A stretch of DNA of 64,000 nt, taken from an uncultured Veillonellaceae bacterium (lineage in GTDB: Bacteria; Bacillota; Negativicutes; JARBTT01). The stretch is from contig CAWDTA010000001.1 of assembly GCA_963805085.1 (NCBI GenBank), forward strand, positions 226,805 through 290,804. The letters run 5' to 3'. Below, piece after piece: positions 22,098 through 63,755 of the stretch. The stretch's first letter is position 1. Each line of letters begins with the position of its first letter. The notes under the pieces are model-generated. The model did no database searches. It worked only from the letters and a program-made list of their open reading frames with translations, and was not told where the DNA came from. The translations under genes and the position numbers were made by a program.

Positions 22098-22363
22098 TTA
22101 TTTTATTTTAGCTGTTTTTAAAAATTTTAGAAAAAAACACCATATGAACAAGTGTGATCATGCAAGCAAAGACAGCTTAGTTGTCTTTGCTCTGTAACAA
22201 AAAGGTTCGATAGTTACTAGAAATTCAAAAAAAACTGTAAACTCCCTTATTTTTCTTGCGATTTTTAAAAAAATTATATTGCTCAAATAGCCTTTTTAAG
22301 ATAATATTTATATGTTATAGTGTGAGTTTGCGTTTTGTATATTTATTGATAGTAGGTGGAATT

Positions 22364-28238: not shown

Positions 28239-28364
28239 GCCGAGCATAAATAGAGGAAAAAAATAATTCTAGCTAGTCAATATAACTCTGATTGGCTTTC
28301 TTCAGAATTTGTATTTATTTTGTCGAAACTTTATGATAAAACAGACACATTAAGGAGCTTTGCT

Positions 28365-29651
28365 ATGGAAAATCAAGGGAAAAATAAAACTACAACTACT
28401 AAAAAGCAGGTAAAAGGTAGTTCACGCAAAACTTCAAGTAAACGGCCGTGGGCAGTGCTTGGTATCGCAATGCTGCTGGTTGGTACTTATTTTTATTTTA
28501 TTAATTATGAGAATAAAGATAAAGAGAGAGCAATGGAGCAAATCCAGAATTATACGATAGAAAAAACAGGCGCTGGCACAAATGCTAATTTTACAGAAAA
28601 AACAAAGCAAATCCATACTGTTGTTGATAAAGTATTGCAAGATAAGAATGTGACGGTGCTTGATACAACGCAAGCCAGTAAGACGGTCAAACGACAGAAA
28701 ATAGAAGGAAACATTTCCTGGAATGCACGGCAAATGCCAGTTTCGATTGCAAATGGTGCTGTAGACGAATTGAGAGCTGCTCTTGATAAAGCGTTAAATA
28801 AAATTGGTGCAAAGATTATAAACACAGAACCAGATCAATATAATGGAAATGCAGTCATGCGATTGGATATTGGTATTGAAGATGAACTTGATGGAGATCA
28901 AGTCACAATTATCGCCGATAAATTGTATGTAATGCAGAAAAAAACTTCGTTGACAGATAAATCTCCTCCTCCAGCAAGCAAAGGTGGAAGTAAGGCAAAA
29001 TTAGCGCTTGTGATTGATGATTTTGGCTATACAGAAGAGCCAATCAATGCGTATGAAGGTATTGATCGGCCATTGACTTTTGCGATATTACCCAATCACC
29101 CCTACAGTAAAGAAGCCGCAAATCGTGGCTATAAAAGTGGTCGCCAGATTATTTTGCATTTACCAATGGAAGCAATGAGCAGTGCGGCAAAGGTAGAAGT
29201 ACAAACGATTAATGTGAATATGAGTGATGCTGAAATAAGAGCAATGGTCAATGAATTAACAGAAGCAGTGCCGCATATTATTGGTGTGAATAATCATCAA
29301 GGTTCAAAAGCAACTTCAAATCAACAGGTTATGAAAGTTGTTTTAAATGAACTTGCAGGTAAGGGATTATTTTTTATCGACAGCAAAACAATTGCGAGCT
29401 CAATTGCTTATGATACCGCAAGGGCAGTTGGTGTTAAAACTGGAGAAAATAAAATTTTTCTTGATAATAGTAGTGATGTAGATGAAATAAAAAAACAATT
29501 GCGGCAAGCGGGAAATATTGCTTTGAAAAATGGCAGCGCAATTGCAATAGGCCATGCACGTTTAAATACGGCAAAAGCAATCAAGGAACTTATTCCTGAA
29601 TTAGAAGCACAAGGGATAGATTTTGTATTTGCCTCGGAACTGCTAAAATAA
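28365..29651 (+). CDS. Divergent polysaccharide deacetylase family protein (YibQ-like) with an N-terminal membrane anchor
   Basis: ATG 28365 follows AAGGAG; the ORF track starts at TTG 28320. It has a Lys-rich N-terminus and one TM helix. The C-terminal half (LALVIDDFGY, FAILPNHPYS, NNHQGSKAT) is typical of the YibQ family. Confidence 0.75.
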   Translation: MENQGKNKTTTTKKQVKGSSRKTSSKRPWAVLGIAMLLVGTYFYFINYENKDKERAMEQIQNYTIEKTGAGTNANFTEKTKQIHTVVDKVLQDKNVTVLDTTQASKTVKRQKIEGNISWNARQMPVSIANGAVDELRAALDKALNKIGAKIINTEPDQYNGNAVMRLDIGIEDELDGDQVTIIADKLYVMQKKTSLTDKSPPPASKGGSKAKLALVIDDFGYTEEPINAYEGIDRPLTFAILPNHPYSKEAANRGYKSGRQIILHLPMEAMSSAAKVEVQTINVNMSDAEIRAMVNELTEAVPHIIGVNNHQGSKATSNQQVMKVVLNELAGKGLFFIDSKTIASSIAYDTARAVGVKTGENKIFLDNSSDVDEIKKQLRQAGNIALKNGSAIAIGHARLNTAKAIKELIPELEAQGIDFVFASELLK

Positions 29652-30006: not shown

Positions 30007-32208
30007 ATGCGTATATTGATTACAGGTGGATATGGGTTTATAGGGTCTCATGTTGCAGAACGTTTTTCTAAAGAAGGGCATCAAGTTGTGGTGGTGGATG
30101 CTCTTTTGGCGGGGTCCAAAGAAAATCTGACAGTAAAGCATACCTTTTATCAGTTGAATATTGCTGATAAAAAATGTGAAGAGGTATTTAGGGTCAACAA
30201 TTTTGATGTGGTTGTTCATCTTGCAGCACAAGTAGATGTCAACACTTCAGAGAATAATCCATGTTTGGATATTGAATCTAATATTCTTGGCCTTGTTAAT
30301 ATGCTAGATTTAGCAAGTAAATATCATGTCAAAAAATTTATTTTTGCATCGTCTGCAGCAGTATATGGTAATGCGGAAACAATGCCTATTACAGAACGAG
30401 CTCCATTAAAGCCAATATCCGTTTATGGGATCAATAAAGTAAATGGAGAAGAGTATTGCCTGAAATGGAAAGAGATATATGGGTTAAATACGGCTATCGT
30501 ACGTTTTTCCAATGTTTACGGTCCTCGCCAAAGTGTAAAAGGAGAAGGTGCAGTCATTCCTGCCTTTATTACAAAGGTACTAAAAAGTGAGAAAATCACG
30601 ATTTATGGTAGTGGCAAACAAATAAGAGATTATGTTTATGTAGAAGATATTGTAGATGCTTTATATCGTCTTGCGATGTACAACAAAGAAGTTGAGATTA
30701 TGAACGTATCCACGAATACAGAATGTAACTTAGATGAGCTAGTGAATATGTTATCAACCTACGGAAAAATAAAAGAAATTGAATATAAAGAAAAGCGGCA
30801 AGGAGATATTGACAAATCTAAGTTAGATAATTCTCAATGCATAAAAGAATTGGGGTGGTCACCCAAATATACTTTGCAAGAAGGTTTAGGAAAAACTTAT
30901 CAATGGTATAAGAATGAACTAGCTAGCCAATCAGTACAAGGGACTGAAGAAAATATGACAGTAAAATTTTTGTATCATAAATTTGCAGTGGCTAGACCTT
31001 ATATAGAAAATTTACTAATGTTTTGTATTATGCTAGCGTTGACCTTAACGAATACTTATGGGTCGATCATAAATACAAGTATAGGTTTGGATTATAATTA
31101 TATCTATATTGTTGCTATGGGACTTTTATATGGTAAAAAACAATCCATACCAGCGACTATTCTTTCCTCAGCATTGCTTATGTATAGTTTCTTATTACAA
31201 GGTGCTGATTTCGTAGCGATTGCTTATCAATCACAACATATTGTTCATTTTGCTACTTATTTATTTATTGGTGTTGTGACTGGTTACGTTACAGATAGTA
31301 GAGAAAGAGTTGCTTCAGATCAAAATATTGTCTTGAAAAATACAAAAGAGCGCTATCAATTTCTTGAAACAATGTATTTAGAGAATGTGACAATTAAAGA
31401 TAAACTTTATAAGCAAATTGTAAATTCTAATGATAGCTTAGGAAAGACGTATCAGATTATTCATAAACTAGATAGCATTGAGGTAGAAAAAATATTTACA
31501 GCCTCCAATGAAGTTGTAGCGGAAATTATGCACACTGATTCTGTTGCGATTTATATTGTTGGTAAAAATGGTTATTATTTAAGACAAAAAACGAGAACGA
31601 GTGAAAAACTAGATCATTTGCCGAGGTCTTTAAAAATTGAAAGCTTTGATTACTTAAAAAAGATGATGAAAGATAAAAAGGTTTTTACGAATAAACGTTT
31701 AAACAAAGATTGTCCTCATATGGCAGCCCCCGTTATCTTTAATAATGATGTAATCGCGGTGTTGCAAATTTATCAGTTACCATTTGAAAGTTTAAATCTT
31801 TATCATGAGAATTTGCTGAAGATTACGGCGATGCTTATTTCGGAAGCTTTAGGAAAAGCATATTTACATGAGCAAAGCGTGCAAGATAAAAAATATATTG
31901 GAGGAACTCGGATTCTTATTGCTGAGGAGTTTGAAAAAATTCAATTAGAAATGGCACTTCGGCAAAAAAATAGTAACCAATTATCAGTTGCATTGATTAA
32001 AATTTTAACGGAATCGAAAGATTATAACCAAATCTATAAAGAGATCACAGGAGTTATTAGAGATGAAGACTTTATAGGGGTAAAAAAAGATGGTTATGTT
32101 TATGTTATGCTGCTTGATATCAGTGCTGATATGGTTTTTGAAGTACAAAAAAGGATTAAAAAAGTTGGCTTAGACACAGTTGATATGATAGGTGATACCC
32201 ATGACTGA
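30007..32208 (+). CDS. pelD: Fusion protein: NAD-dependent sugar epimerase (PelX/GalE-like SDR) + 4-TM + GAF + degenerate GGDEF c-di-GMP receptor (PelD-like)
   Basis: 733 aa with SD AGGGGG. Residues 1 to about 310 form an extended SDR (ILITGGYGFIGSH, YGINK). Hydrophobic helices cover about 325-430. The C-terminus carries R685-D-E-D688 followed by FIGVKKDGYVYVML, an RxxD I-site five residues ahead of a degenerate GGDEF position as in PelD. Confidence 0.8.
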   Translation: MRILITGGYGFIGSHVAERFSKEGHQVVVVDALLAGSKENLTVKHTFYQLNIADKKCEEVFRVNNFDVVVHLAAQVDVNTSENNPCLDIESNILGLVNMLDLASKYHVKKFIFASSAAVYGNAETMPITERAPLKPISVYGINKVNGEEYCLKWKEIYGLNTAIVRFSNVYGPRQSVKGEGAVIPAFITKVLKSEKITIYGSGKQIRDYVYVEDIVDALYRLAMYNKEVEIMNVSTNTECNLDELVNMLSTYGKIKEIEYKEKRQGDIDKSKLDNSQCIKELGWSPKYTLQEGLGKTYQWYKNELASQSVQGTEENMTVKFLYHKFAVARPYIENLLMFCIMLALTLTNTYGSIINTSIGLDYNYIYIVAMGLLYGKKQSIPATILSSALLMYSFLLQGADFVAIAYQSQHIVHFATYLFIGVVTGYVTDSRERVASDQNIVLKNTKERYQFLETMYLENVTIKDKLYKQIVNSNDSLGKTYQIIHKLDSIEVEKIFTASNEVVAEIMHTDSVAIYIVGKNGYYLRQKTRTSEKLDHLPRSLKIESFDYLKKMMKDKKVFTNKRLNKDCPHMAAPVIFNNDVIAVLQIYQLPFESLNLYHENLLKITAMLISEALGKAYLHEQSVQDKKYIGGTRILIAEEFEKIQLEMALRQKNSNQLSVALIKILTESKDYNQIYKEITGVIRDEDFIGVKKDGYVYVMLLDISADMVFEVQKRIKKVGLDTVDMIGDTHD

Positions 32209-33100
32209 TGAAGTGATTTTAATTTTAATCTTGGCAAATGGTATTTTATCACTCTTATATTTTATTTGGGCTGCAAAAAAGAGTAAATCTCAGGCGATTA
32301 GTGAAGTTGCGATGATGCTTTTGATTCCTTTTTTTGGTCCTGGTTTTATTCTTATTATTAAATTGGCAGAAGTGTTTAAATTGAAACAAGAAGATCCATC
32401 CTACATGTACCAAGAATTTAAAAATAAACACTTGATTTTGGGTGATTTTATGCAGCATGAAGCAAATATTATTCCAATTAATGACGCATTGTTTATTGAT
32501 GATACAAATACAAAGCGTACTTTACTTACCGATGCAATCAAGCAAAATGTTTTGCAAAATAATAATATTTTGCTGAAAGTAGTTCGAGATTCCGATAGGG
32601 AAGTATCTCATTATGCTGTTTCGATGGTTACAAATATCATTGGAAATTTGGAAGTAATTCTATTTCAACTTGAAAAGAAGTTACTAGAAGATCCTAAAAA
32701 TATAGAGTGTTTAATGAAATATGCTGATGCAATGTCCGAATATTTACAAATTGGTTTTCTTGATCCAATTTCGCAAAAGAAAAGTGAAGAAATTTATATT
32801 AATATTCTTGAAAACATAATATCTTTAAAAGTTACTGATAAACGGTATTTCATTGAAAAAATCAATTATGAAATCAAACAAGAAAACTATAAAAAAGCAG
32901 AGTTTGATTGCAGGAATTTCATGGATATATTTCCTAATGATGAAGATCCATATCTTATGTATATAAAATTATATGGTCAGTTGAACGAATATCAAAAAAT
33001 GCAAGAAAAATTACAAGAATTAAAAGCTTGCCCGATTAAATTTACTAGGAATGCTCTGGAAATTATTCGGTTTTGGGGGGGAGAAGAGGAATATGTATAA
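32201..33100 (+). CDS. pelE: PelE-like membrane protein with helical-repeat (TPR-like) domain
   Basis: ATG 32201 follows AGGTGA and overlaps the upstream stop. It has two N-terminal TM helices and then a helical, TPR-like soluble part. The call rests mainly on architecture and its position between the PelD-like and PelA-like genes. Confidence 0.55.
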   Translation: MTDEVILILILANGILSLLYFIWAAKKSKSQAISEVAMMLLIPFFGPGFILIIKLAEVFKLKQEDPSYMYQEFKNKHLILGDFMQHEANIIPINDALFIDDTNTKRTLLTDAIKQNVLQNNNILLKVVRDSDREVSHYAVSMVTNIIGNLEVILFQLEKKLLEDPKNIECLMKYADAMSEYLQIGFLDPISQKKSEEIYINILENIISLKVTDKRYFIEKINYEIKQENYKKAEFDCRNFMDIFPNDEDPYLMYIKLYGQLNEYQKMQEKLQELKACPIKFTRNALEIIRFWGGEEEYV

Positions 33101-34919
33101 AAAAAATATTGCAATTGTTCTTTCTCTCGTTTTTCTTTTGGGCTTGTTTTTCCAATACAACCGCAGTGATGGTTTTATTCGTTTGATCAAAAACAAAAAT
33201 GTTTCCGCAATTAGCGGAGACTTCAGTCTTGGTAAAGAAGAGCAAAAAAATATACCAAGGGAGCGGATGCTTCTCGTCTATGACCCAAGTAGTGTGCATA
33301 GTCTTTTCTTACGTCATAATATTGAGCATTTAGCTAAATACTTGAAGAAAGAGATTGTAGCAGTACCAGCTAAAGAAGCACTTAGTGAAAATTTGGATTA
33401 TGATGGTATTATTATAGCACTGGAAAATTTAGACGATTTCAATGATATGGAAAAAGTGAATCAATATGCTAGTCAAGGTGGTAATGTATATTTTATGATT
33501 CGCCCGATACCAGGTGTTAAAATAAATGAAGTTTATCATGACTTGGGGATCAGTCGTATGGGGGATATTGTTAATACTAAAGGAATTAAAATGAATACCA
33601 ATTTACTCATCGGAGCAAAAGGTTTTGAGTTAAATAACGATATCTATACGACTTCTGCGATAAAATGTGAACTTACCAATGAAGCTAATATTCATATGAG
33701 CTCCCAAGAAGGAATTCCTCTTCTGTGGGAAACAAGCATAGGAAAAGGCAAATATATCGTCTATAATGGCTCAGGGTTAGGCGATAAGATGAATCGTGGA
33801 TTAATGACAGCAATGATAGGTTTAGGCAAATCGGTGTATCTTTATCCAGTTGCAGCAATTAAGTTATCCTTTATTGATGATTTCCCCGCACCTATCCCAG
33901 AGGGGTATTACGATAAAATTTATGATGAATTTAAATTATCTACACCGCAATTTTATCGTCAGGTTTGGTGGCCCTATATGTTGTCTTTAGCAGAAAAATA
34001 TGATATTAAGTATACGGGATTGATTATTGAAACCTATAATGATGCTATAGTTCCTCCTTTCAATCCTGATATAGAGACTCCTGACAAGAATAATCTTATT
34101 ATTTATGGTAGAGAACTTTTGAAAAGTGGTGGAGAACTTGGTATTCATGGGTATAATCATCAATCATTAGCACCAGAAGGCTATAATCAAAAAGCTTTAG
34201 GATATAAACCCTGGCAGAGTCAAAAAGATATGATACTGTCATTGACAGAGTTGAAAAGATATGTAGAAAACGTATATCCAGATTATAAAATAAAGGCATA
34301 TGTACCACCGTCTAATATTTTAAGTCCAGAGGGTAAGCAAGCGCTTATACAGGTGTTTCCTGATTTGAAAATGATTTGCTCCCTCTATACTGGACAGGCT
34401 GAAGAAAGAGAAGCTTATATTCAAGATTTTGAAAAAAGCCCAGATGGTATTTTAGAATTGCCACGTGTTTCTTCTGGGTATATGCGCAATGATCAGTTTG
34501 ATTGGGAAACTATCAATGTTATCAATTTCATAGGGGTATTTTCTCACTTTGTTCATCCAGACCAAATCTTTTATGAAGAGAGTCAAGGCTTAACTTGGCG
34601 TGAAATGAGCGAAGACTTTGAATCATTGATGAAAGAAATACAAGAAAACTATGGATGGCTTAGGAGCTCTACTGCCTCTCAAGGCGCAGAGTATCTTGAA
34701 GAATACTTTAATGTAGATTATCGGATTGTCGAAAAACCCGATGAAATGACAATATATTGTTGGGGTTATAAAAAAGAATCATATTTTATTATGAAAACGA
34801 CAAAAAAAATTATAAGATATGAAGGCTGTCAAGTGGAACATATTGATGATAATGCATATTTAGTGAAAATTTCCCAGCCGGAAGTTAAGCTGAAGTTTGA
34901 AAGTGAGGGTAAGCCGTGA
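33093..34919 (+). CDS. pelA: DUF2194-type polysaccharide deacetylase (PelA deacetylase-domain homologue, PelA_DA-like)
   Basis: ATG 33093 follows GGGGGGAGAAGAGGAA and overlaps the pelE stop by 8 nt. It has an N-terminal signal/anchor (IAIVLSLVFLLGLFF). CE4-like motifs are SFIDDFPAP and LGIHGYNHQS. Confidence 0.7.
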   Translation: MYKKNIAIVLSLVFLLGLFFQYNRSDGFIRLIKNKNVSAISGDFSLGKEEQKNIPRERMLLVYDPSSVHSLFLRHNIEHLAKYLKKEIVAVPAKEALSENLDYDGIIIALENLDDFNDMEKVNQYASQGGNVYFMIRPIPGVKINEVYHDLGISRMGDIVNTKGIKMNTNLLIGAKGFELNNDIYTTSAIKCELTNEANIHMSSQEGIPLLWETSIGKGKYIVYNGSGLGDKMNRGLMTAMIGLGKSVYLYPVAAIKLSFIDDFPAPIPEGYYDKIYDEFKLSTPQFYRQVWWPYMLSLAEKYDIKYTGLIIETYNDAIVPPFNPDIETPDKNNLIIYGRELLKSGGELGIHGYNHQSLAPEGYNQKALGYKPWQSQKDMILSLTELKRYVENVYPDYKIKAYVPPSNILSPEGKQALIQVFPDLKMICSLYTGQAEEREAYIQDFEKSPDGILELPRVSSGYMRNDQFDWETINVINFIGVFSHFVHPDQIFYEESQGLTWREMSEDFESLMKEIQENYGWLRSSTASQGAEYLEEYFNVDYRIVEKPDEMTIYCWGYKKESYFIMKTTKKIIRYEGCQVEHIDDNAYLVKISQPEVKLKFESEGKP

Positions 34920-36343
34920 AAATTTGTATGCTGGTAGAAGGAAGTTACCCTTATATTGTCGGTGGTGTGTCATCCTGGGTACAAATGCTAATTTCAGGCA
35001 TGCCAGAACATCAGTTTATTATCTATTCCATCGCTGCTGAGGAAAAAAATAAAGGAAAGTTTAAATATAAATTACCTGCAAATGTAATTGAGGTGCGTGA
35101 AGTTTTTTTAGATAGCATTTTAAATTTAAAATGTCCATCTGCAGGTAACTATAAATTAAGCCCAAAAGAAAGAGGAAACTTAGAAAGACTAATTTGTGGC
35201 GAAAGCGATATTGATTTAGAAACCTTGTTAATGACATTTCGCTCAAATAAAAAAAATCGCGATATTTTGGAAATTTTCATGAGTTTTGATTTTTTTGATG
35301 TTATTACAAGTGCATATAAGAAAAAATTTAGTTATTTACCATTTACGGACTTTTTTTGGACGATTCGTTCGATGTTATTGCCACTTTTTTTTATTCTTCA
35401 GCAAGATTTGCCTGATGCTGATGTTTATCATAGCGTTGCCGCTGGATATTGTGGTGCTGTTGGTGGTCTAGCGGCTACTATCTATAAAAAACCATTTATA
35501 TTAACGGAACATGGTATCTATTCTAGGGAAAGAGAAGAAGAAATTATTAAGTGTGATTGGGCAAAGGGCGATTTTAAATCTGTGTGGATAAATTATTTTT
35601 ACAGTTTAGCTAGGCTTACCTATCAAAAATCTACCAGTGTTATTTCTTTATTTGAAAAAAATGCAGAAATTCAAATTTCTTTAGGGTGTGATTCGCAAAA
35701 AGTACAAATCATACCAAATGGAATTCATGTAGATCAATTTGAAAATATCAAGCAGCCTATTGAAGAGAAGGAAACAATCACAATTGCTGCTATAGTCAGG
35801 GTTGTCCCAGTGAAAGATATTATTACAATGATTAGAAGCTTTTTCCTTGTGAAAGAAAAAATGCCGAATACACGGTTTCTCATTATTGGTCCATGTGATG
35901 AAGATGCAGAGTATTATGAAGAATGCTTAAAACTTATTAAAACTTTAGCTATAAAAGACATTGAATTTACTGGATCGGTAGATGTAAAGCAATATATTGG
36001 TGACGTCGATATTCTAGTTTTGTCGAGTATTAGTGAAGGGCAGCCACTCGCAGTTTTAGAAGGTATGGCCAGTAGAAGGCCATTCGTAACGACTGATGTT
36101 GGTTGTTGTCGTGAATTGTTGTATGGTAGCAATGACAATTTTGGAGAAGCTGGGATTGTTGTTCCGATGATGGATTTTGAGGGGATGTCCGAAGCCATTA
36201 TTGCACTAGCAAAGGATAAAAAGCTTAGGTTCGAGATGGGAGAAAATGGGCATCGGCGAGCTTGTGAATTTTATACGATTAAGGGGTTTATTGATGATTA
36301 TAGGCGAGCATACTGTGAGGTTACTGAGGGAGTGAGTGAATAA
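34916..36343 (+). CDS. pelF: Pel polysaccharide glycosyltransferase (GT4)
   Basis: GTG start overlaps the upstream stop by 4 nt. The N-terminus MKICMLVEGSYPYIVGGVSSWVQMLI closely resembles the PelF N-terminal (DUF3492) signature. The GT4 E-x7-E region is EGQPLAVLEGMASRRPFVTTDVG. Confidence 0.9.
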   Translation: MKICMLVEGSYPYIVGGVSSWVQMLISGMPEHQFIIYSIAAEEKNKGKFKYKLPANVIEVREVFLDSILNLKCPSAGNYKLSPKERGNLERLICGESDIDLETLLMTFRSNKKNRDILEIFMSFDFFDVITSAYKKKFSYLPFTDFFWTIRSMLLPLFFILQQDLPDADVYHSVAAGYCGAVGGLAATIYKKPFILTEHGIYSREREEEIIKCDWAKGDFKSVWINYFYSLARLTYQKSTSVISLFEKNAEIQISLGCDSQKVQIIPNGIHVDQFENIKQPIEEKETITIAAIVRVVPVKDIITMIRSFFLVKEKMPNTRFLIIGPCDEDAEYYEECLKLIKTLAIKDIEFTGSVDVKQYIGDVDILVLSSISEGQPLAVLEGMASRRPFVTTDVGCCRELLYGSNDNFGEAGIVVPMMDFEGMSEAIIALAKDKKLRFEMGENGHRRACEFYTIKGFIDDYRRAYCEVTEGVSE

Positions 36344-36345
36344 GA

Positions 36346-37779
36346 ATGGCTGGAATTGGGTTTGAGTTAAAAAAACTTTTTAATAAAAAAAGCGCGATTG
36401 GTTATTTTAAAGCGTATACATATACGTCTATTGTCACAACAGGGCCGTTTGTTTTAATGACAGGTATGGTTTTGTCGATCCAATTGTTATTTCATCTGTT
36501 CAATATTTCATATTTTGATACACAAATTTATGTTGCTTCAATTATCTATCCATTTATTTTTTCACATATCATTGCGAGTGGGTTTGCTATGCTGATTACT
36601 AGATTTGTAGCAGATCAACTGTACAGTAATGAGTATGATGAAATTATTCCGTCCTTGTATGGTATGCTTTCCTTAGCATTGGGGATAGGTGCTATTTTAG
36701 CATTAGCTTTTTTCTGGAATAAGCCTTTGACGATCGAACTGAAGTTAGCGACTTATATCTTTTACATGGAAATGATTGTGATATGGATTCAAGGGGTATA
36801 TTTGAGTGCATTAAAAGATTATAAAAAAATAATACAATCTTATGCAGGCGGAGCTTTTATTGCAGTTTTTTTAGCTTTTATCATCTTGAAATCAGGAGTA
36901 TTTTCGCCAGCATTTGGTACAATGTTGTCGATGAATATTGGTGTGTTTTTCATTGCTAGTATGTTAATGCTTAATATCAAAAAATTTTTTGGCAAGAGCA
37001 GTTACAAAAATTTTTCATTTTTAGCTTACTTTGAAAGCCACTTTAGTTTATTTTTAATAAACTTATTGTATTCTATTAGCTTATATATTCCTAACATTAT
37101 GATTTGGTACGGCCCGTTGGGCATAAACATTGCGGGAACTTATATTTATGCTCCAGAATATGATATTGCAACTTTCTATGCATTTTTATCTATATTACCG
37201 GTTATGATTATGTTTGTTGTTTCTACAGAAATCCATTTTTACCAGAAGTATTCTACTTATTTTATGTATATTACAGAAAAAGGAAACTTCAAAGAAATAG
37301 AAGACGCAAGGCAAGATTTGTTGCATATTATGTGGTCAGAAATTCGTAATATTGTTGAATTTCAACTTGTTTTCACGCTGATTTTTTTATCGTTAGGTAA
37401 TTATTTTTTGCCAAAAACTGGATTGGTTCATGCGTCAGTTAATATGTATAATTTAATTGTGTTAGGTGCTTATGCTACAGGTCTAATGCAAGTGATTATC
37501 ACGTTGCTTCTTTACTTTGAAGATCGAAAAGGTGTTTTGTATCTTTGTAGCCTATTTTTAATTACTAATATTATTTTTAATTTAGGGAGTATGGTGGTTG
37601 GAGAAAATACCTATGGTTTTGGTTTTTTCCTTTCAGCTTTTTTAAGTTTGGTCATGGCAATTTGCCGCTTAATCTATTTTAGTAATAGACTTGATTATTT
37701 TATTTTTTGCTCTCGTCCTGTTTTTTGTAATCATAAAGCCGGAATTTTAACAAAACTTGTGAATCGAATTTATAGTTGA
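36346..37779 (+). CDS. pelG: Pel polysaccharide export inner-membrane protein
   Basis: 477 aa and polytopic (about 12 TM). The N-terminus MAGIGFELKKLF is the characteristic PelG start (MAGIGFELRK in Pseudomonas). Confidence 0.9.
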   Translation: MAGIGFELKKLFNKKSAIGYFKAYTYTSIVTTGPFVLMTGMVLSIQLLFHLFNISYFDTQIYVASIIYPFIFSHIIASGFAMLITRFVADQLYSNEYDEIIPSLYGMLSLALGIGAILALAFFWNKPLTIELKLATYIFYMEMIVIWIQGVYLSALKDYKKIIQSYAGGAFIAVFLAFIILKSGVFSPAFGTMLSMNIGVFFIASMLMLNIKKFFGKSSYKNFSFLAYFESHFSLFLINLLYSISLYIPNIMIWYGPLGINIAGTYIYAPEYDIATFYAFLSILPVMIMFVVSTEIHFYQKYSTYFMYITEKGNFKEIEDARQDLLHIMWSEIRNIVEFQLVFTLIFLSLGNYFLPKTGLVHASVNMYNLIVLGAYATGLMQVIITLLLYFEDRKGVLYLCSLFLITNIIFNLGSMVVGENTYGFGFFLSAFLSLVMAICRLIYFSNRLDYFIFCSRPVFCNHKAGILTKLVNRIYS

Positions 37780-37857
37780 AGAAAAGAATGACAAAGTGAA
37801 TAATGTGAATAATTTTCCAGCTTTTAAGGACGATTTTTTATTAGGGAGGCAGCTTTT

Positions 37858-39801
37858 TTGAAAAAAAAGAAGAAAAGTAAAAATTTCTATAAAATATTTG
37901 CAGTTTATGTCTGTAGTTTTTGTATTTTGCAGAGTAATGTAGAAGCGACAAATGCTGTTTCTGTTGTGGATGAAGCGAAAAATACGGCAATTTTTATGCG
38001 TGAGTCAGCAAAAAATATTGCTGAGCACCGTAAAGCCGTTGCAGATGAAAAGCAAGCCGAAGTTGTTGCTGCTGATACTGCAAAGGATGTAGCACAGTTA
38101 GAAGCGGATAAAACTGTTACGGAAAAAACATTAGCCGATGCTATTGAAGTATTAAAGAAAAACGAGGAGAATGCTAAGTTGGCTGTTTTAGAGGCTAACG
38201 AAAAAGATCGTCTAGCAAAACAGGCAATGGCTGATGAAAAGGTAGCATTAGAGGAAAAAGCATTAGCTGAGCAAGCCGTAGACGAGGCAAAAGCTGAAGA
38301 AGATAGGATAACTTATCGAGAAAATGCAGCAGTTCGGGCGGCAGAAGCACAAGCGGCCGTAGCGAGTGAAGCTGGTGCCACAGAGGCTGTTAAAGCAGTT
38401 GGATACGATGAAACTAGAATTGATGAGGCTGAGCAAAAGGTGCAGGCTATTACTGATAGAGCGTATGCTGTCGCTGAAGCGAGAAGTTTAGCTGCTGAAG
38501 CTAGAGTGAATGAGGCAGCCAGTGCGGTCGAAGTGGCTGAGAAAAGGTTAGAAGAAGCCGAAGAAAGAATAGGCTTTGCAGCAGATGCTCGTTTGGATGC
38601 CGACGAGGCCGAAAAATCTGCTCAAGAGGCAAAAAAAGATTTGTTGGAAGCAAAGTCAGATGTAGAAGAGCTTCGTACTAGCCTTGTTGAAGCGAAAAAA
38701 GAGTTAACACTTGCGCAAGCCGAACTTGTTGATGCACAATTGGTATTAGAAAATGCAAAAAAAGATTTGCAACCAGTCACGAATAGCCGTACTATGCAAC
38801 TAGAAGCTAAATATTATTCTTGGAAGGATAACCAAGGCCATAGTGGACATCAGTTTTATCAGCCTTATGATTTTAATGTGGTTGATAAAAATACTGAATA
38901 CGGATTACATACTGGTTACGTAGTGTCAAATAATAATTCAAATAGCAATGGAAATATTTCAACTTTGACAGATACGGTTGTTAATATTACTAAAACAAAT
39001 CCAAAAGAAAAGTATGCAGTTCATTATACTTTAGATGTTAATTTGCCAACAGGAAAGTCTAAGCTTAATGGTTCTGGACAAATAATGTCAGATGATTTGG
39101 TAGAAAATGCTCGTTTCGGCGAAGGATTGAATTATACACCTGGTATTAGTGTCAGTCACAAAATTGGCGAAGAGGATACTTGGACTTTGGGCACTTCCTA
39201 TGCTTTTCGCGGTAGTTATGAATATGATAGTACGATGCCTGGATCAAAGTTTGATCCGGGGACAGAATGGGCAAAAAGTCTTAATTGGCTACATGCAGGA
39301 CAAAAATGGCAATTGCTCGGGGAGTTATCCCATACGAATTACGGAATGTCAGAAGAAAACGGAATTCAGTATAGGGAAGGAAATCAATTTGATGCAAAAT
39401 TATTTTATAACTTTGTTTTAAATGCTAAACAAGATTTAATGGTTTATTATTGGTATTCGCTTGGTCGCCCTACTACGTACCCTATACCAGGTGATTATGA
39501 TGTAGAGAGTGATTTAACTCGTCACTATTTTGGTGCAGAATGGGCGAAAAAAATATCAACTACGCGAACTTTTCATGTGATGGCAAATGTAATGCACAGT
39601 ACAGGTAGCACTTATGACCCGATTGCCGCTTTATATGTAAATGATCGGACTAAATATAGTGGTGGTATTGGCTATGATGTTGCATTGTCACCTAACCAAA
39701 CGATGTCCCTTGCGGTTGAAAGTTTCTATATGAAAGATCATTCGCCAGATAATAGTTATCATGGTTGCAATTTATATTTAAGATATTCAGCAAATTTCTA
39801 A
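37858..39801 (+). CDS. Secreted protein with about 270-aa Ala/Glu/Lys coiled-coil region and about 335-aa beta-rich C-terminal domain ending in Phe; candidate outer-membrane Pel export component
   Basis: TTG start 8 nt after GGGAGG. The signal peptide is MKKKKKSKNFYKIFAVYVCSFCILQSNVEA/TN. Residues about 36-305 are heptad-like and helical. Residues about 312-647 are rich in Tyr/Gly/Asn/Ser with alternating hydrophobic residues. The C-terminus is YLRYSANF, an OMP-like terminal aromatic. Confidence 0.6.
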   Translation: MKKKKKSKNFYKIFAVYVCSFCILQSNVEATNAVSVVDEAKNTAIFMRESAKNIAEHRKAVADEKQAEVVAADTAKDVAQLEADKTVTEKTLADAIEVLKKNEENAKLAVLEANEKDRLAKQAMADEKVALEEKALAEQAVDEAKAEEDRITYRENAAVRAAEAQAAVASEAGATEAVKAVGYDETRIDEAEQKVQAITDRAYAVAEARSLAAEARVNEAASAVEVAEKRLEEAEERIGFAADARLDADEAEKSAQEAKKDLLEAKSDVEELRTSLVEAKKELTLAQAELVDAQLVLENAKKDLQPVTNSRTMQLEAKYYSWKDNQGHSGHQFYQPYDFNVVDKNTEYGLHTGYVVSNNNSNSNGNISTLTDTVVNITKTNPKEKYAVHYTLDVNLPTGKSKLNGSGQIMSDDLVENARFGEGLNYTPGISVSHKIGEEDTWTLGTSYAFRGSYEYDSTMPGSKFDPGTEWAKSLNWLHAGQKWQLLGELSHTNYGMSEENGIQYREGNQFDAKLFYNFVLNAKQDLMVYYWYSLGRPTTYPIPGDYDVESDLTRHYFGAEWAKKISTTRTFHVMANVMHSTGSTYDPIAALYVNDRTKYSGGIGYDVALSPNQTMSLAVESFYMKDHSPDNSYHGCNLYLRYSANF

Positions 39802-39836: not shown

Positions 39837-40922
39837 GTGGTATGCAAAGTGCCAAAAGCTGTTCTACGATATATGTTAATCGTTTTAAGTTTCATAGCGT
39901 TTAGTTTGACTTTAGAGTTGACGTCGGCTACGAACACCCAAGATACAATGCTCACTTATTTACCGAAGCTGTATACCAGTCAAAGTGACACAAAAAAAGT
40001 TGAGGCTATGCAAAATATGGACTATAAAGAAAAGATGATTTCATTGATTGAGAAAATTAGCAAGTATTCAAAATCTAAAAATCAGTCTTTTCAGCTGATT
40101 GGTAATAATGGATTAGAGTTATTTCGAACCGAGGAAGTTGGTATGCAAAACGTAAATCGTATTCTTAGTAGTGTCGATGGAATTCTTTTAGAAGGTTTTT
40201 ATTATGGCTGGGAAATGGAAGATGATAAAAGAACGTCAGCAGCAGTCCGAGCAATACTTAATCGAGGCTTAGAAATACCGGTAAGCAAGAACTTGCCAGT
40301 ACTGAATATTGATTATTGTGATAGTATTCGAAAGGTTGAAAAATCTTACCAATTGAATGATGGTAGTAATTTTATTGACTTTGCGGCAAGTAATCGTGAA
40401 CTGGATACGATTCCAACTGATCCACCTCAGATTTATAACGAGAACGACAATACGATTCGTGAGTTGAAGCAAGTAAAAAATTTTATTGCCTTACTTAATC
40501 CACAAAAATTTAAAACCAAGAAAAGTTATTTGGAAAGCTTAAAAAATACAAACTATGATTTACTGATTATTGATATGTATTTTGATGGAGAGCGTCTATT
40601 GCCGAGCGATGTGGAATCGCTCAAAGTGAAGAAAAATGGAGCGACTAGACTGGTATTTTCTTATATGAGTGTTGGTGAAATAGAAAATTATCGTCCGTAT
40701 TGGAAGAGTGAATGGTCAAAGAATCCACCTAAATGGATTGCTGAGATAAATCCAGACTGGGATGGTAATTTTAAAGTCAAATATTGGAATAAAGAGTGGG
40801 AAAATATTCTATTTGGTTTTCCTGATTCTTATTTAGATCTTATCTTGGCATCAAAATTTGATGGGGCATTTATGGATGTGATTGATGCCTTTGAGTATTT
40901 TGAGAGTAAAGATAATGAATAA
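39837..40922 (+). CDS. GH114-like endo-alpha-1,4-(N-acetyl)galactosaminidase (PelA hydrolase-domain homologue), secreted
   Basis: Start is GTG 39837 or GTG 39849, after AAAGGGG. It has a signal peptide (LIVLSFIAFSLTLELTSA). Motifs LLIIDMYFDG, YMSVGEIENYRPYW, KVKYWNKEW and FDGAFMDVIDAFEYF are typical of the GH114/TM1410-like TIM-barrel family. Confidence 0.75.
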   Translation: MVCKVPKAVLRYMLIVLSFIAFSLTLELTSATNTQDTMLTYLPKLYTSQSDTKKVEAMQNMDYKEKMISLIEKISKYSKSKNQSFQLIGNNGLELFRTEEVGMQNVNRILSSVDGILLEGFYYGWEMEDDKRTSAAVRAILNRGLEIPVSKNLPVLNIDYCDSIRKVEKSYQLNDGSNFIDFAASNRELDTIPTDPPQIYNENDNTIRELKQVKNFIALLNPQKFKTKKSYLESLKNTNYDLLIIDMYFDGERLLPSDVESLKVKKNGATRLVFSYMSVGEIENYRPYWKSEWSKNPPKWIAEINPDWDGNFKVKYWNKEWENILFGFPDSYLDLILASKFDGAFMDVIDAFEYFESKDNE

Positions 40923-40988: not shown

Positions 40989-42983
40989 TTAAACTTTAAA
41001 TTTATTTACTGCTTCTGCTAATTCCTGTGCTAAGTTAGAAAGTTCATTGCTCGAGGCGGAAATTTCTTGCATAGTAGCGGATTGTTCTTCTGTAGTCGCA
41101 GAAATGCTTTGTGTTTGTTCAGAGCTTTGTTTGCTCATATGATCAATTTCATTAACTGCAGTAACGATTTTTACGCGTTCATTCTCAATATCTTCAACTT
41201 TATTCGAGATTTGATTGATTTTCTCTGTAGTAGCAGCAATTACTTGAGCGATCTCTTGAAAGGCTAGGCCAGCATCATTAACCACTTTTGTGCCAATTTC
41301 AGCTTGGTCAGTTTCTTCCTTCATACCCGATATTACAGTTTCAGTTTCGTGCTGAATGTCATTGATCAATAAAGTTATTTCATGCGCGGCCTCTTGTGAT
41401 TGCTCGGCTAATTTGCGGACTTCTTCAGCGACAACCGAGAAACCACGTCCTTGCTCGCCAGCTCTAGCCGCTTCAATAGCAGCATTTAAGGCAAGTAGAT
41501 TGGTTTGAGCAGCAATATTAGAAATGGTATCAATAATTTGGCCAATCTGTGTGGATTTTTCACCCAGTTGATTTGCTCGTTTTGTAGATTCGATGACTGA
41601 TGATTGAATATTGCCCATTTGGTCAATGGCTTTTTCAATCGATACATTACCAGTGGCAATTGTTTTTGTTGCTGTTGTCGTTTGTTCGGATACTGTTTGT
41701 ACATTTTCAGTTACAGAATGGATATGTTCCGAGATGTTATTCACTAGATGATGCGTATTTTCAACCTGTAACATTTGTGATTCAGCATTGGTGGCAACAA
41801 GAGATATTGCTTCAGCTGAAGTTGCGGCACCTTGCGACACTTCTTCACTGCTTGAAGTAAGTTCTTCGCTGGCGGCACTTACTTTTTCGGCACTGACTTG
41901 AATTTTTTTCGTTAGGGTTCTTAATTGGTTCACCATATTATTATAAGAATGGCCTAATGCACCAATCTCATCTTCTGCATAAACTGTAATGGTTTGCGTT
42001 AAATCACCGTCAGCAACTAATTTTGTCTTTTCTGCCAGAACTCTCATTGGTTGCGTTAATATTTTGGTTAAAACAAAGGCAATGATAACAACAAAAAATG
42101 TAGTTGCTAAACAAGTAAATAGTGAAAAAATAAGTTGTTTGCGAGAATTTGAGATTGAATCGCTTTTACTCGTTTCAGCGACTACCGACCAGTGGGATTG
42201 ATTAATTGGGGCATAACCGGCAATGGTATCTACACCGTCTGGCGTAGTATAATCAACAGCACCAGAATTGGTTAACATAGCGTTAGCTACCGGTTCTAAT
42301 TTATCGACACTGGTGATATTTTTTACCAACTCTTCATTAGGATGAACCAGTAAAGTTCCTTTAGAATCAGCTAAGAAGGCATAGCCTAATTGATTCTTTT
42401 TTGCATTTGTCATTATATTTTTAAGAATACTTAAATCCATAGTCGCAGAAATAGAACCGATTACTTTATCTTGTGAATTTTTAATGGGAACAGAAAGCAC
42501 AAAGATCGCTTTGTTATCGGCTTTAGAATAGATCAAATCACTTACGGATACTTGAGCAGAACCATTTAATATGGGTTTTATGTATGAACGATCGCTCCCG
42601 TTTTGATTATTACCAGCGTTGCGGGCGATTTGCTGTCCAGTGGTATCACAGATAAACATATCGCTAATATCTGGAAAGCTTGTCTTGAAAGATTGTAATA
42701 AAGGAATTAAATCCTGCGGATTCATTGCCTGAACCGTGGGTAGTTTTGTCATTGATCTAAGTAGATTAACTCTGCTTAATAGCATGTCATCGATTTCCTT
42801 AGCGGTATTGATAGCGGTATTTTGATTTAGCGTATGCGCAGTTTCTGTTTCAGCATTATAAGAGATTATACTATTAAAAATAGTAACAATGAATAGTGGG
42901 ATGAGTGCGATTGTCGCAAACCCAAAGGTAAGCTTGGTTTTTAGTTTCGTTGTTCGATCGAGAGTTTTTAAAAATGTGAACAT
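40989..42983 (-). CDS. Methyl-accepting chemotaxis protein with periplasmic double-Cache-type sensor
   Basis: 664 aa with two TM helices flanking a sensor of about 260 aa, then HAMP. The highly conserved signalling hairpin is [35 protein letters not shown]. Confidence 0.9.
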
Positions 42984-63663: not shown

Positions 63664-63755
63664 ACTATATACCTCCATGATAAAATATATATGAACTCTT
63701 TAGTAAAAGCTTAAAACGGTAACATTCAAATTTTTAGCATCAATTTTTATAACAT

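What the first reader, a model, noticed from the sequence alone, without database searches (positions are those of the whole stretch)
37858..39801. Coiled-coil stalk plus beta-barrel-like protein embedded in the pel locus: candidate new outer-membrane Pel exporter
The protein has a cleavable signal peptide and then about 270 residues of near-continuous Ala/Glu/Lys helix. As a single helix, at 0.15 nm per residue, that is long enough to span a periplasm. A Tyr/Gly/Asn-rich domain of about 335 residues with alternating hydrophobicity follows, ending in ...YLRYSANF, a terminal aromatic as in BAM substrates.

The stalk-plus-barrel layout recalls OmpM of Negativicutes, but without an SLH domain. 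It bears no resemblance to PelB or PelC. Its position between pelG and the hydrolase gene argues that it supplies the missing outer-membrane or periplasm-spanning export function.
Basis: inference. Interest (0 to 1): 0.75.

Follow-up and report, generated by a model that had tools for sequence, protein, structure and literature searches.

The report
Candidate outer-membrane Pel exporter, diderm Firmicutes
A gene inside a biofilm-polysaccharide (Pel) operon of a two-membraned Firmicute encodes an uncharacterised protein, a long acidic helical stalk fused to a 16-stranded outer-membrane barrel, that is found in every related two-membraned species examined and in no single-membraned one, so it is the most likely missing channel that takes the polymer across the outer membrane.

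Summary
ORF 37858-39801 (+, 647 aa) has a GGGAGG ribosome-binding site, a signal peptide, about 272 helical residues rich in Ala/Glu/Lys, and a 338-residue domain ending in ...YSANF.

AlphaFold2 models the C-terminal domain as a closed 16-stranded barrel (pLDDT 94.7, pTM 0.89). All strong PDB fold matches are outer-membrane barrels. BcsC ranks first and PelB is in the top eight, but only marginally ahead of ordinary porins.

The helical part is modelled as an antiparallel hairpin about 18-22 nm long with a conserved tip motif, not as one long helix.

The locus is a Gram-positive-type pel operon (pelD-pelE-pelA_DA-pelF-pelG) followed by this gene and a GH114 hydrolase. There is no pelB or pelC in it.

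Sampling from the PelG side gave these counts:
- 3 of 3 named Negativicutes genomes carry a homolog directly after pelG.
- 16 of 16 Negativicutes-type metagenome loci carry one.
- 0 of 49 monoderm-type loci carry one, and the one monoderm genome checked does not.

A sister subfamily sits in PgaC-like GT2/deacetylase operons of Acidaminococcales.

There is no sequence homology to PelB, BcsC or PgaA, and no TPR or SLH domain. The best reading is a new, analogous outer-membrane export porin. That function is inferred, not shown.

The parts
37844..37849 (+). Ribosome-binding site GGGAGG, 8 nt upstream of the TTG start
   Evidence: Read directly from the sequence.
37858..37947 (+). Signal peptide, residues 1-30 (MKKKKKSKNFYKIFAVYVCSFCILQSNVEA, cleavage after VEA inferred)
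   Evidence: The sequence shows n/h/c regions. AF2 pLDDT is below 50 for residues 1-30. Homologs have equivalent N-termini.
37954..38397 (+). Helical arm 1, residues 33-180. Residues 33-55 are the conserved base segment.
   Evidence: DSSP helix 33-180, pLDDT 80-95. Conservation is seen in alignment A1.
38401..38433 (+). Hairpin tip motif G182-E192 (GYDETRIDEAE). The helix breaks at residues 181-184.
   Evidence: AF2 places the helix break here. It is the only conserved motif in the middle of the stalk (consensus xxDExxLDEAE). It sits at the point where the two arm lengths co-vary.
38410..38769 (+). Helical arm 2, residues 185-304, antiparallel to arm 1. The whole stalk has net charge -25.
   Evidence: DSSP helix 185-304. 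It shows 3.5-residue periodicity. Stalk charge is 65 D/E against 40 K/R.
38782..39798 (+). 16-stranded outer-membrane beta-barrel, residues 309-647, ending in the aromatic signal ...YLRYSANF
   Evidence: AF2 pLDDT 94.7 and pTM 0.89 with an 86-sequence alignment. Foldseek hits are all outer-membrane barrels. The C-terminal residue is F, W or Y in 69 of 86 relatives.
39046..39129 (+). Long loop between strands 5 and 6 (L3, residues 397-424) and its flanks, carrying the family's invariant motif D-x-N-L-P-T-G-K ... R-F-G-E-G-x-N. Candidate pore-lining or gating loop.
   Evidence: Invariant columns are N395, P397, T398, G399, G421 and G423. The stretch is non-strand in both models. The position inside the pore is inferred.
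30007..32208 (+). pelD-like gene with an N-terminal NAD-dependent epimerase domain
   Evidence: PF01370 E 1e-62 plus a transmembrane region. The position is conserved in all related loci.
32192..33100 (+). 302-aa gene in the pelE position (no Pfam hit)
   Evidence: Synteny and tblastn conservation at 35-58% identity.
33051..34919 (+). pelA_DA (DUF2194 deacetylase-like)
   Evidence: PF09960 E 8e-148.
34916..36343 (+). pelF glycosyltransferase
   Evidence: NF038011 PelF E 1.5e-109, above the curated cut-off.
36346..37779 (+). pelG
   Evidence: PF16933 E 5e-129.
39837..40922 (+). GH114 / TIGR01370-type glycoside hydrolase with an N-terminal signal or anchor (counterpart of the PelA hydrolase domain)
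   Evidence: PF03537 E 5e-13 and TIGR01370 E 2e-42. It follows the target gene in most related loci.

Best explanation
The gene encodes the outer-membrane component of a Gram-positive-type Pel system that operates in a two-membraned Firmicute (a Sporomusaceae relative of Anaerosinus/Massilibacillus).

What the sequence and models show:
- The protein has a Sec signal peptide.
- It has a C-terminal 16-stranded beta-barrel with an aromatic C-terminal residue, as BAM substrates have.
- It has an N-terminal, strongly acidic, roughly 270-residue helical region.

What is inferred:
- The barrel sits in the outer membrane and is the exit pore.
- The helical region folds into an antiparallel coiled-coil hairpin about 18-22 nm long that hangs into the periplasm. 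Its conserved base lies under the barrel.
- The conserved tip (GYDETRIDEAE) reaches toward the peptidoglycan and inner membrane. There it contacts the PelD/E/G synthase complex and/or the periplasmic enzymes PelA_DA and GH114.
- The cationic, partly de-N-acetylated polymer made by PelF is handed along the acidic stalk to the barrel.
- The invariant L3 loop (NLPTGK...RFGEG) lines or gates the pore.

Functionally this corresponds to PelB (or BcsC, PgaA). A helical hairpin replaces the TPR array and there is no PelC ring. The protein is not a sequence homolog of those proteins.
For: Barrel:
- AF2 gives pLDDT 94.7 and pTM 0.89, with 16 strands.
- Foldseek returns only outer-membrane barrels. BcsC ranks first with and without the stalk, and PelB (9h80_M) ranks 4 and 8 with among the lowest rmsd values, 7.4-8.2 A.
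- Relatives weakly hit three outer-membrane barrel Pfam families: PF13557 in 10, PF13505 in 8 and PF07642 in 4 of 86.
- The C-terminal residue is aromatic in 69 of 86 relatives.

Host:
- The closest named homolog (83% identity) is from a Massilibacillus sp. MAG. NCBI taxonomy resolves that name to the genus Anaerosinus (Sporomusaceae, Negativicutes).
- Others come from Propionispora, Selenomonas, Pectinatus, Azotosporobacter and Phascolarctobacterium.

Context:
- The order pelD-E-A_DA-F-G-target-GH114 is conserved at 27-55% barrel identity.
- From the PelG side, Pectinatus haikarae, Selenomonas ruminantium and Azotosporobacter soli all carry a homolog right after pelG (blastp 3e-75, 2e-42, 5e-72). 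The monoderm Anaeromicrobium sediminis has the same pel genes but no homolog.
- In 79 metagenome pel loci the barrel HMM hits directly after pelG in 16 of 16 Negativicutes-type loci and 0 of 49 monoderm-type loci.

Second system: homologs in Phascolarctobacterium faecium and an Acidaminococcales MAG lie in an operon with a PgaC/IcaA-like GT2 synthase (E 2e-40 and 1e-36, below the curated cut-off) and a protein with a polysaccharide-deacetylase Pfam match (above the Pfam cut-off only in the MAG; marginal and sub-threshold in P. faecium).

Hairpin:
- The helix breaks at a conserved motif.
- Arm lengths co-vary across 11 homologs, r = 0.87.
- The stalk is net acidic in nearly all coiled-coil forms.

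No pelB or pelC, and no TPR or SLH domain, is present in the operon.

PelB, BcsC and PgaA share a 16-stranded barrel (PMC12141448).
Against: - No experiment has been done. Localisation, pore activity and any role in export are all inferred.
- Foldseek separates BcsC and PelB from generic porins only weakly: E 3e-9 against 8e-9 for Omp32, with TM about 0.5 for many targets.
- There is no sequence homology to solved structures or to the E. coli BcsC and PgaA barrels (hhalign probability below 1%).
- Barrel-only relatives (373-440 aa) in other phyla sit in contexts unrelated to exopolysaccharide. The barrel family as such is therefore not specific to polysaccharide export.
- The estimated lumen-facing charge is about neutral (13 D/E against 12 K/R, a crude estimate). 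PelB's pore is anionic.
- The hairpin comes from a monomer model built on a 12-sequence alignment. A parallel oligomeric coiled coil is not excluded.
- The co-occurrence counts come from essentially one clade and are not phylogenetically independent.
Confidence: 0.68

Rival explanations
1. It is an outer-membrane-anchored periplasmic scaffold or surface anchor for Pel rather than the channel. The barrel only anchors the protein. The acidic stalk recruits PelA_DA and GH114, or binds and retains the cationic polymer. The polymer leaves by another route.
For: The stalk is long, acidic and conserved at its tip. The gene is flanked by the hydrolase gene. The estimated lumen charge is not clearly anionic.
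Against: No other outer-membrane candidate exists in any of the 30 or so loci examined. A 16-stranded barrel is much larger than an anchor needs to be. The most conserved residues lie in a barrel loop, not in the stalk.
Confidence: 0.13
2. It is a general or small-molecule outer-membrane channel (COG4313/PF13557-like, or a porin) that happens to be encoded next to pel and is not involved in polymer export.
For: 10 of 86 relatives weakly match PF13557. The COG4313 channel 4rl8 is among the fold hits at rank 19. Barrel-only relatives lie in non-exopolysaccharide contexts.
Against: The stalk-bearing form is strictly linked to pelG in Negativicutes (16/16 and 3/3) and is absent from monoderm loci. 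It is independently linked to a second synthase-type operon. The model has 16 strands; the 12-strand count for COG4313 is from my own recollection of the published structure, which I did not check here. The window protein itself has no PF13557 hit.
Confidence: 0.06
3. It is an OmpM-like tether that links the outer membrane to the cell wall (stalk plus porin). It is expressed with pel to reinforce the envelope during matrix production.
For: The architecture of signal peptide, helical stalk and 16-stranded barrel resembles OmpM of Negativicutes (PMC10628300).
Against: There is no SLH domain or any peptidoglycan-binding domain at E up to 1. The stalk has about 270 residues, against a coiled-coil stalk of only about 50 residues in OmpM (R64-R113; PMC10628300). 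OmpM structures are not among the top 50 fold hits. The operon linkage is specific.
Confidence: 0.04
4. It is not a membrane barrel at all. It is a secreted or surface coiled-coil adhesin with a soluble beta-rich domain.
For: Lipid-facing hydrophobicity of several strands is modest and rich in Tyr, Thr and His.
Against: The closed-barrel model has very high confidence. All 283 significant PDB fold hits listed at the top are outer-membrane barrels. The C-terminal aromatic signal is conserved. The protein is restricted to organisms with an outer membrane.
Confidence: 0.02

Closest known systems
PelB of Pseudomonas aeruginosa (with PelC; PDB 9h80)
   Same: It is encoded in a pel operon. It has a C-terminal 16-stranded outer-membrane barrel with an alpha-helical periplasmic region N-terminal to it. 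It is a top-8 Foldseek match (TM 0.47-0.52, rmsd 7.4-8.2 A). Presumed role: the exit pore for cationic Pel and a platform for the modifying enzymes.
   Different: No sequence similarity is detectable. A helical hairpin of about 270 residues replaces roughly 800 residues of TPRs. There is no PelC partner in the locus. The pore charge is not evidently anionic. The host operon is the Gram-positive type (pelD with an epimerase domain, separate PelA_DA and GH114).
BcsC (cellulose) and PgaA (PNAG) outer-membrane porins of E. coli
   Same: BcsC is the best structural match, with and without the stalk. It shares the 16-stranded barrel and the helical periplasmic module of a synthase-dependent system. 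A sister subfamily of the target sits in PgaC-like operons.
   Different: hhalign probability against both barrels is below 1%. There are no TPR repeats.
OmpM of Negativicutes (Veillonella parvula; PMC10628300)
   Same: Same host clade. Same order of signal peptide, helical stalk and 16-stranded barrel.
   Different: OmpM has an SLH domain and a short parallel trimeric coiled coil, and it is a general porin and tether. The target has no SLH domain, a stalk about five times longer that is predicted as a hairpin, and an operon-specific context.
COG4313 / Pfam PF13557 (Phenol_MetA_deg) outer-membrane channels, e.g. Pseudomonas putida 4rl8
   Same: This is the only named family with any sequence signal: 10 of 86 relatives, best E 6.5e-11. 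Fold hit at rank 19. The D-x-N-L-P-T-G motif region aligns in barrel-only relatives such as P0012.
   Different: The window protein does not reach any Pfam threshold. The model has 16 strands; the 12 strands of COG4313 are from my own recollection, not checked here. COG4313 channels lack a stalk and are implicated in uptake of hydrophobic compounds.
DcaP (Acinetobacter) and FapF (Pseudomonas): barrels with an N-terminal periplasmic coiled coil
   Same: Both are outer-membrane barrels and both appear among the fold hits (6eus, 5o65). That they carry an N-terminal periplasmic coiled coil, and that FapF is a dedicated secretion pore for a matrix component, is from my own recollection.
   Different: As I recall, their coiled coils are short, parallel and trimeric. 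FapF exports amyloid subunits and DcaP takes up dicarboxylates. No sequence relationship was found.

Membership tests
PelB/BcsC/PgaA-type exopolysaccharide outer-membrane porins | C-terminal 16-stranded outer-membrane beta-barrel | tested here: met
   The AF2 barrel-only model has pLDDT 94.7. Sixteen strands were counted from the DSSP string. BcsC and PelB are the top fold matches.
PelB/BcsC/PgaA-type exopolysaccharide outer-membrane porins | N-terminal periplasmic TPR array | tested here: not met
   No TPR family appears in the Pfam scan at E up to 1. The model shows two long helices forming a hairpin.
PelB/BcsC/PgaA-type exopolysaccharide outer-membrane porins | Detectable sequence homology of the barrel | tested here: not met
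   The profile against all PDB sequences gives no hit at E up to 10. hhalign against the E. coli BcsC and PgaA barrels gives probability below 1%. PelB itself was covered only through the PDB search.
PelB/BcsC/PgaA-type exopolysaccharide outer-membrane porins | Encoded in a synthase-dependent exopolysaccharide operon | tested here: met
   It lies between pelG and GH114 in the window, as in all Negativicutes pel loci examined. Paralogs lie in GT2/deacetylase operons.
PelB/BcsC/PgaA-type exopolysaccharide outer-membrane porins | Required for polymer export across the outer membrane | not testable with these tools
   Needs a deletion or complementation experiment plus localisation of the polymer.
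PelBC complex | Partner lipoprotein PelC encoded in the operon | tested here: not met
   The operon is gene-dense, with gaps of 78 and 35 bp. All ORFs were assigned and none is PelC-like. The rest of the genome was not available.
OmpM (diderm Firmicute outer-membrane tether/porin) | N-terminal SLH domain that binds peptidoglycan | tested here: not met
   No SLH hit in Pfam at E up to 1, for the target or for any of 12 homologs.
OmpM (diderm Firmicute outer-membrane tether/porin) | Parallel trimeric coiled-coil stalk joined to a 16-stranded barrel | tested here: inconclusive
   A 16-stranded barrel and a helical stalk are present. The monomer model gives an intramolecular hairpin. The oligomeric state could not be modelled.
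Pfam PF13557 Phenol_MetA_deg / COG4313 | Match to the family HMM above the gathering threshold | tested here: not met
   The window protein has no hit. Only 10 of 86 relatives match weakly.
Pfam PF13557 Phenol_MetA_deg / COG4313 | 12-stranded barrel without a periplasmic domain | tested here: not met
   The model has 16 strands plus a stalk of about 270 residues. The 12-strand count for COG4313 is from my own recollection.
BAM-dependent outer-membrane beta-barrel proteins (general) | Signal peptide, closed antiparallel barrel with an even strand number, C-terminal aromatic residue, host with an outer membrane | tested here: met
   The signal peptide is seen by inspection. The barrel has 16 strands. 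The terminal residue is F here and aromatic in 69 of 86 relatives. The named homologs of the stalk-bearing form come from Negativicutes; the one exception is a 2.8 kb contig (L011) binned as a Eubacterium sp. MAG, probably a binning error.

The most novel reading that the evidence does not exclude
The hairpin stalks of several protomers may assemble into a hollow alpha-helical conduit that spans the periplasm, in the manner of TolC or membrane-fusion-protein hairpins. The conserved tip would dock directly onto the inner-membrane PelD/E/G complex. That would give a continuous, enclosed trans-envelope channel for a synthase-dependent polysaccharide, a design unlike the open TPR 'rail' of PelB, BcsC and PgaA. 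The same gene would also mark the ancestral diderm form of the Firmicute pel operon, from which monoderm lineages lost the outer-membrane component.
Probability: 0.12. Interest if true: 0.85.

Novelty: new variant of a known kind. Interest (0 to 1): 0.66.

Why it matters
Gram-positive-type pel operons were defined in monoderm bacteria. The two defining papers (PMC7112168, PMC7112194) do not mention Negativicutes or diderm Firmicutes. None of my literature searches found a description of how such an operon gets its polymer across an outer membrane.

This gene is a concrete, testable answer. It is a new protein family (no Pfam or NCBIfam model, annotated 'hypothetical') that replaces PelB/PelC with a different periplasmic module.

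It also appears in a second, PgaC-like system in Phascolarctobacterium faecium. That homolog belongs to a cluster of 749 metagenome sequences. Selenomonas species also carry the pel form.

The presence/absence pattern (every diderm locus, no monoderm locus) makes it a clean marker for how secretion operons changed during transitions between diderm and monoderm envelopes in Firmicutes.

Tried and rejected
- Pfam and NCBIfam scans of the target gave nothing.
- phmmer and a profile hmmsearch against all PDB sequences gave nothing meaningful.
- The first homolog search with the full protein found only 12 hits. The low-complexity stalk saturated the word pre-filter. Repeating with a barrel-only profile gave 321 or more.
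- hhalign against the E. coli BcsC and PgaA barrels showed no homology.
- The genome-contig scan used a single peptide pattern and returned only 8 loci.
- The metagenome scan with PelG as a single sequence returned nothing. It succeeded with an alignment.
- Barrel-only and Gly/Pro-rich-extension relatives (P0012, P0055, P0036) were checked for exopolysaccharide contexts and had none.
- The second 618-aa protein in the Acidaminococcales operon is not a paralog.
- The promoter/terminator scan of the operon gave no signal above shuffles. Operon membership therefore rests on strand, short gaps and synteny.
- Heptad-periodicity analysis was clear for arm 2 only.
- The lumen-charge estimate from strand phase is crude and uninformative.
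- I could not read model coordinates, so pore diameter, loop placement and hairpin geometry were not measured.
Full report
**1. The observation**

The ORF is at 37858..39801 on the + strand (647 aa, TTG start). A GGGAGG ribosome-binding site lies 8 nt upstream.

The N-terminus is MKKKKKSKNFYKIFAVYVCSFCILQSNVEA|TN. It has the basic, hydrophobic and V-E-A regions of a Sec signal peptide. This is inspection only, because no signal-peptide predictor was available. There is no lipobox.

Residues 33-310 are A 24%, E 16%, K 9%. Residues 311-647 are rich in S, Y, G, T and N. The protein ends YLRYSANF.

**2. The locus**

Pfam and NCBIfam scans identify a Gram-positive-type pel operon:

| Coordinates | Gene | Evidence |
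|---|---|---|
| 30007-32208 | pelD-like, with an N-terminal NAD-dependent epimerase domain | PF01370 |
| 32192-33100 | 302-aa gene in the pelE position | synteny only, no Pfam hit |
| 33051-34919 | PelA_DA | DUF2194, E 8e-148 |
| 34916-36343 | PelF | NF038011, E 1.5e-109 |
| 36346-37779 | PelG | PF16933, E 5e-129 |
| 37858-39801 | the target | no Pfam or NCBIfam hit |
| 39837-40922 | GH114/TIGR01370 hydrolase with its own signal or anchor | PF03537, TIGR01370 |

All genes are on one strand. The gaps around the target are 78 and 35 bp. There is no room for a pelC, and no TPR protein is present. A consensus scan found no promoter or terminator signal above shuffles.

**3. The host**

The closest named homolog (83% identity) is from a Massilibacillus sp. 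MAG. NCBI taxonomy resolves that name to the genus Anaerosinus, Sporomusaceae, Negativicutes. Negativicutes are Firmicutes with an LPS outer membrane (PMC5007114).

An EptA-like phosphoethanolamine transferase gene at 22256-24073 fits an LPS-bearing envelope.

**4. Structure**

*Full-length model.* With the 12-sequence alignment, AlphaFold2 gives mean pLDDT 84:
- residues 1-30 disordered (signal peptide);
- helix 33-180;
- a break at 181-184;
- helix 185-304;
- then beta-strands to residue 646.

*Barrel-only model.* With an 86-sequence alignment the model reaches pLDDT 94.7 and pTM 0.89. The DSSP string gives 16 strands. The 28-residue connection between strands 5 and 6 (residues 397-424), which by topology is extracellular loop 3, together with the end of strand 5 (N395) holds most of the family's invariant residues: N395, P397, T398, G399, G421, G423.

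*Fold search.* Foldseek against the PDB returns only outer-membrane barrels.
- For the full model, BcsC takes ranks 1-3 and PelB from the PelBC complex is rank 4.
- For the barrel alone, BcsC is ranks 1, 2 and 4, and PelB is rank 8 with among the lowest rmsd values.
- The margin over Omp32, TodX and CymA is small, with TM about 0.5 for all of them.

I therefore take 'outer-membrane barrel' as firmly supported. 'BcsC/PelB-like' is only suggestive.

PelB, BcsC and PgaA all have 16-stranded barrels (PMC12141448).

*Sequence-level support.* Of 86 relatives, 10 weakly match PF13557, 8 match PF13505 and 4 match PF07642. All three are outer-membrane barrel families. The C-terminal residue is F, W or Y in 69 of 86.

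**5. The stalk is probably a hairpin**

As a single helix, 272 residues would be about 41 nm. That is longer than a typical periplasm (my own knowledge: roughly 20-30 nm).

The model folds it back at a break that coincides with the only conserved mid-stalk motif, GYDETRIDEAE (consensus DExxLDEAE).

In 11 homologs the arm before the motif (123-163 residues) and the arm after it (113-139 residues) co-vary, r = 0.87. That is what a hairpin predicts. The sequences are related to each other and the positions depend on the alignment, so this is supporting evidence only.

The N-terminal 20 or so residues of the stalk, which the hairpin places under the barrel, are also conserved.

The stalk is net acidic. 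It is -25 here, and acidic in nearly all coiled-coil forms, whereas the barrels are near neutral.

A parallel oligomeric coiled coil cannot be excluded, because only a monomer could be modelled.

**6. Linkage to Pel**

*From the target side.* Homologs at 27-55% barrel identity lie in the same place in L001, L002, L005, L007, L008, L012, L013, L014 and L016 (Selenomonas artemidis).

That sampling is biased toward loci that have the gene. I therefore also sampled from PelG.

*Named genomes from the PelG side*:
- Pectinatus haikarae: a 682-aa homolog directly after pelG (blastp 3e-75).
- Selenomonas ruminantium: a 738-aa homolog (2e-42).
- Azotosporobacter soli: a 626-aa homolog (5e-72).
- Anaeromicrobium sediminis (a monoderm clostridial species): the same pelD-E-A-F-G and GH114 genes, but no homolog anywhere in 19 kb.

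*Metagenome loci from the PelG side.* 79 pel loci were retrieved with a PelG alignment. I scanned them with a barrel HMM and classified each by its nearest named PelG.
- All 16 loci nearest to Negativicutes PelGs that had downstream DNA carry the gene directly after pelG.
- None of the 49 loci with at least 2.7 kb downstream that are nearest to the monoderm references carries it.
- In two Actinobacteria-like loci (L031, L052), GH114 follows pelG directly. The barrel gene therefore looks like an insertion, or a retention, specific to the diderm clade.

These counts are not phylogenetically independent.

**7. A second, independent association**

In Phascolarctobacterium faecium DSM 14760 (L009) and an Acidaminococcales MAG (L010), the stalk-plus-barrel homolog is not next to pel. 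It is a late gene of an operon that contains:
- a GT2 synthase closest to PgaC/IcaA (TIGR03937, E 2e-40 and 1e-36, below the equivalog cut-off);
- a 612- or 701-aa protein with a polysaccharide-deacetylase Pfam match. The match is above the Pfam cut-off only in the MAG; in P. faecium it is marginal and sub-threshold;
- several unknown proteins.

The P. faecium protein belongs to a cluster of 749 metagenome sequences.

The same architecture attached to two different synthase-dependent systems, whose products would be cationic if partly de-N-acetylated as their deacetylase genes suggest, argues for a polysaccharide-export role.

**8. Limits**

- The barrel family is broader than the stalk-bearing form. 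The profile finds 1700 cluster representatives at E up to 1e-3.
- These include barrel-only forms of 373-440 aa in Proteobacteria and others, and forms with Gly/Pro-rich extensions. The three whose contexts I checked are unrelated to exopolysaccharide. Only the stalk-bearing form is linked to exopolysaccharide operons.
- No sequence homology to PelB, BcsC or PgaA was detected. There is no TPR or SLH domain.
- It is therefore not a member of those families, nor of OmpM. It most plausibly works like PelB.

**9. Literature**

The papers that defined Gram-positive pel operons (PMC7112168, PMC7112194) do not mention Negativicutes or diderm Firmicutes.

A 2026 Selenomonas genomics paper only notes PelF and PelG homologs (PMC13339959).

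Searches combining Pel, exopolysaccharide, Negativicutes, diderm Firmicutes and coiled-coil/barrel found no description of this protein. The library is incomplete, so prior mention elsewhere cannot be excluded.

**10. Verdict**

This is a real, conserved and uncharacterised protein family. It is very probably an outer-membrane barrel with a long periplasmic acidic helical stalk.

My estimate is about two in three that it is the outer-membrane export component of Pel, and of a PNAG-like polymer, in diderm Firmicutes.

It is a new variant of a known kind of machine. All functional steps are inferred.

Noticed in passing
L009 3503-11005 (Phascolarctobacterium faecium DSM 14760) and L010 1598-9667 (Acidaminococcales MAG): An apparently undescribed synthase-type exopolysaccharide operon. 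It contains an unknown 260/286-aa protein, a PgaC/IcaA-like GT2, a 340-aa protein with weak bactofilin/acyltransferase-like hits, a 612/701-aa protein with a polysaccharide-deacetylase match (sub-threshold in P. faecium), an unknown 301/315-aa protein, and then the stalk-plus-barrel homolog. The P. faecium homolog belongs to a cluster of 749 metagenome sequences.
   Followed up: partly
L043 5995-9111 (also L044 and L054): In some monoderm-type pel loci PelG is fused to a C-terminal CotH kinase domain (1039 aa; PF16933 E 4.5e-125 plus PF08757 E 3.8e-63).
   Followed up: partly
L007 8283-9023: One related pel locus has an extra 246-aa ORF with no Pfam hit between pelG and the stalk-barrel gene. 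It could be an additional periplasmic or outer-membrane component.
   Followed up: partly
L005 3121-7103: One related locus carries two tandem DUF2194 (PelA_DA) genes and lacks the GH114 gene after the barrel gene.
   Followed up: no
window 28320-29651 and 27243-28238: Just upstream of the pel operon lie a 443-aa divergent polysaccharide deacetylase (PF04748, E 5.6e-74) and an asparaginase gene. Whether the deacetylase acts on Pel is unknown.
   Followed up: no
window 22256-24073: A sulfatase-family protein with an EptA/EptB N-terminal domain (phosphoethanolamine transferase-like), which fits lipid A/LPS modification in a diderm host. A related Sulfatase gene also flanks the Pectinatus pel locus (L020 1-1076).
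   Followed up: no
window 33051-33100: The listed start of the DUF2194 gene overlaps the preceding 302-aa ORF by 50 nt. The true start may be further downstream, since the Pfam match begins at residue 32.
   Followed up: no
P0033-P0049 (proteins): A subgroup of barrel relatives (about 500-560 aa) has a Gly/Pro-rich (16-21%) N-terminal extension instead of a coiled coil. P0036 lies next to unknown genes and an NB-ARC/AAA ATPase gene, not exopolysaccharide genes.
   Followed up: partly
L003 6463-9827 and L017 1470-3570: Barrel-only relatives in other phyla are each followed by a conserved unknown gene: 741 aa after P0012, with a LuxR-type regulator upstream, and 287 aa after P0055. This suggests two-gene outer-membrane modules of unknown function.
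   Followed up: no
window 40989-42983 (-) and 61555-63678 (-): Two methyl-accepting chemotaxis protein genes. The first (dCache, HAMP, MCP signalling domains) converges on the end of the pel operon. In related loci GGDEF/EAL proteins occupy this neighbourhood (L001, L020).
   Followed up: no
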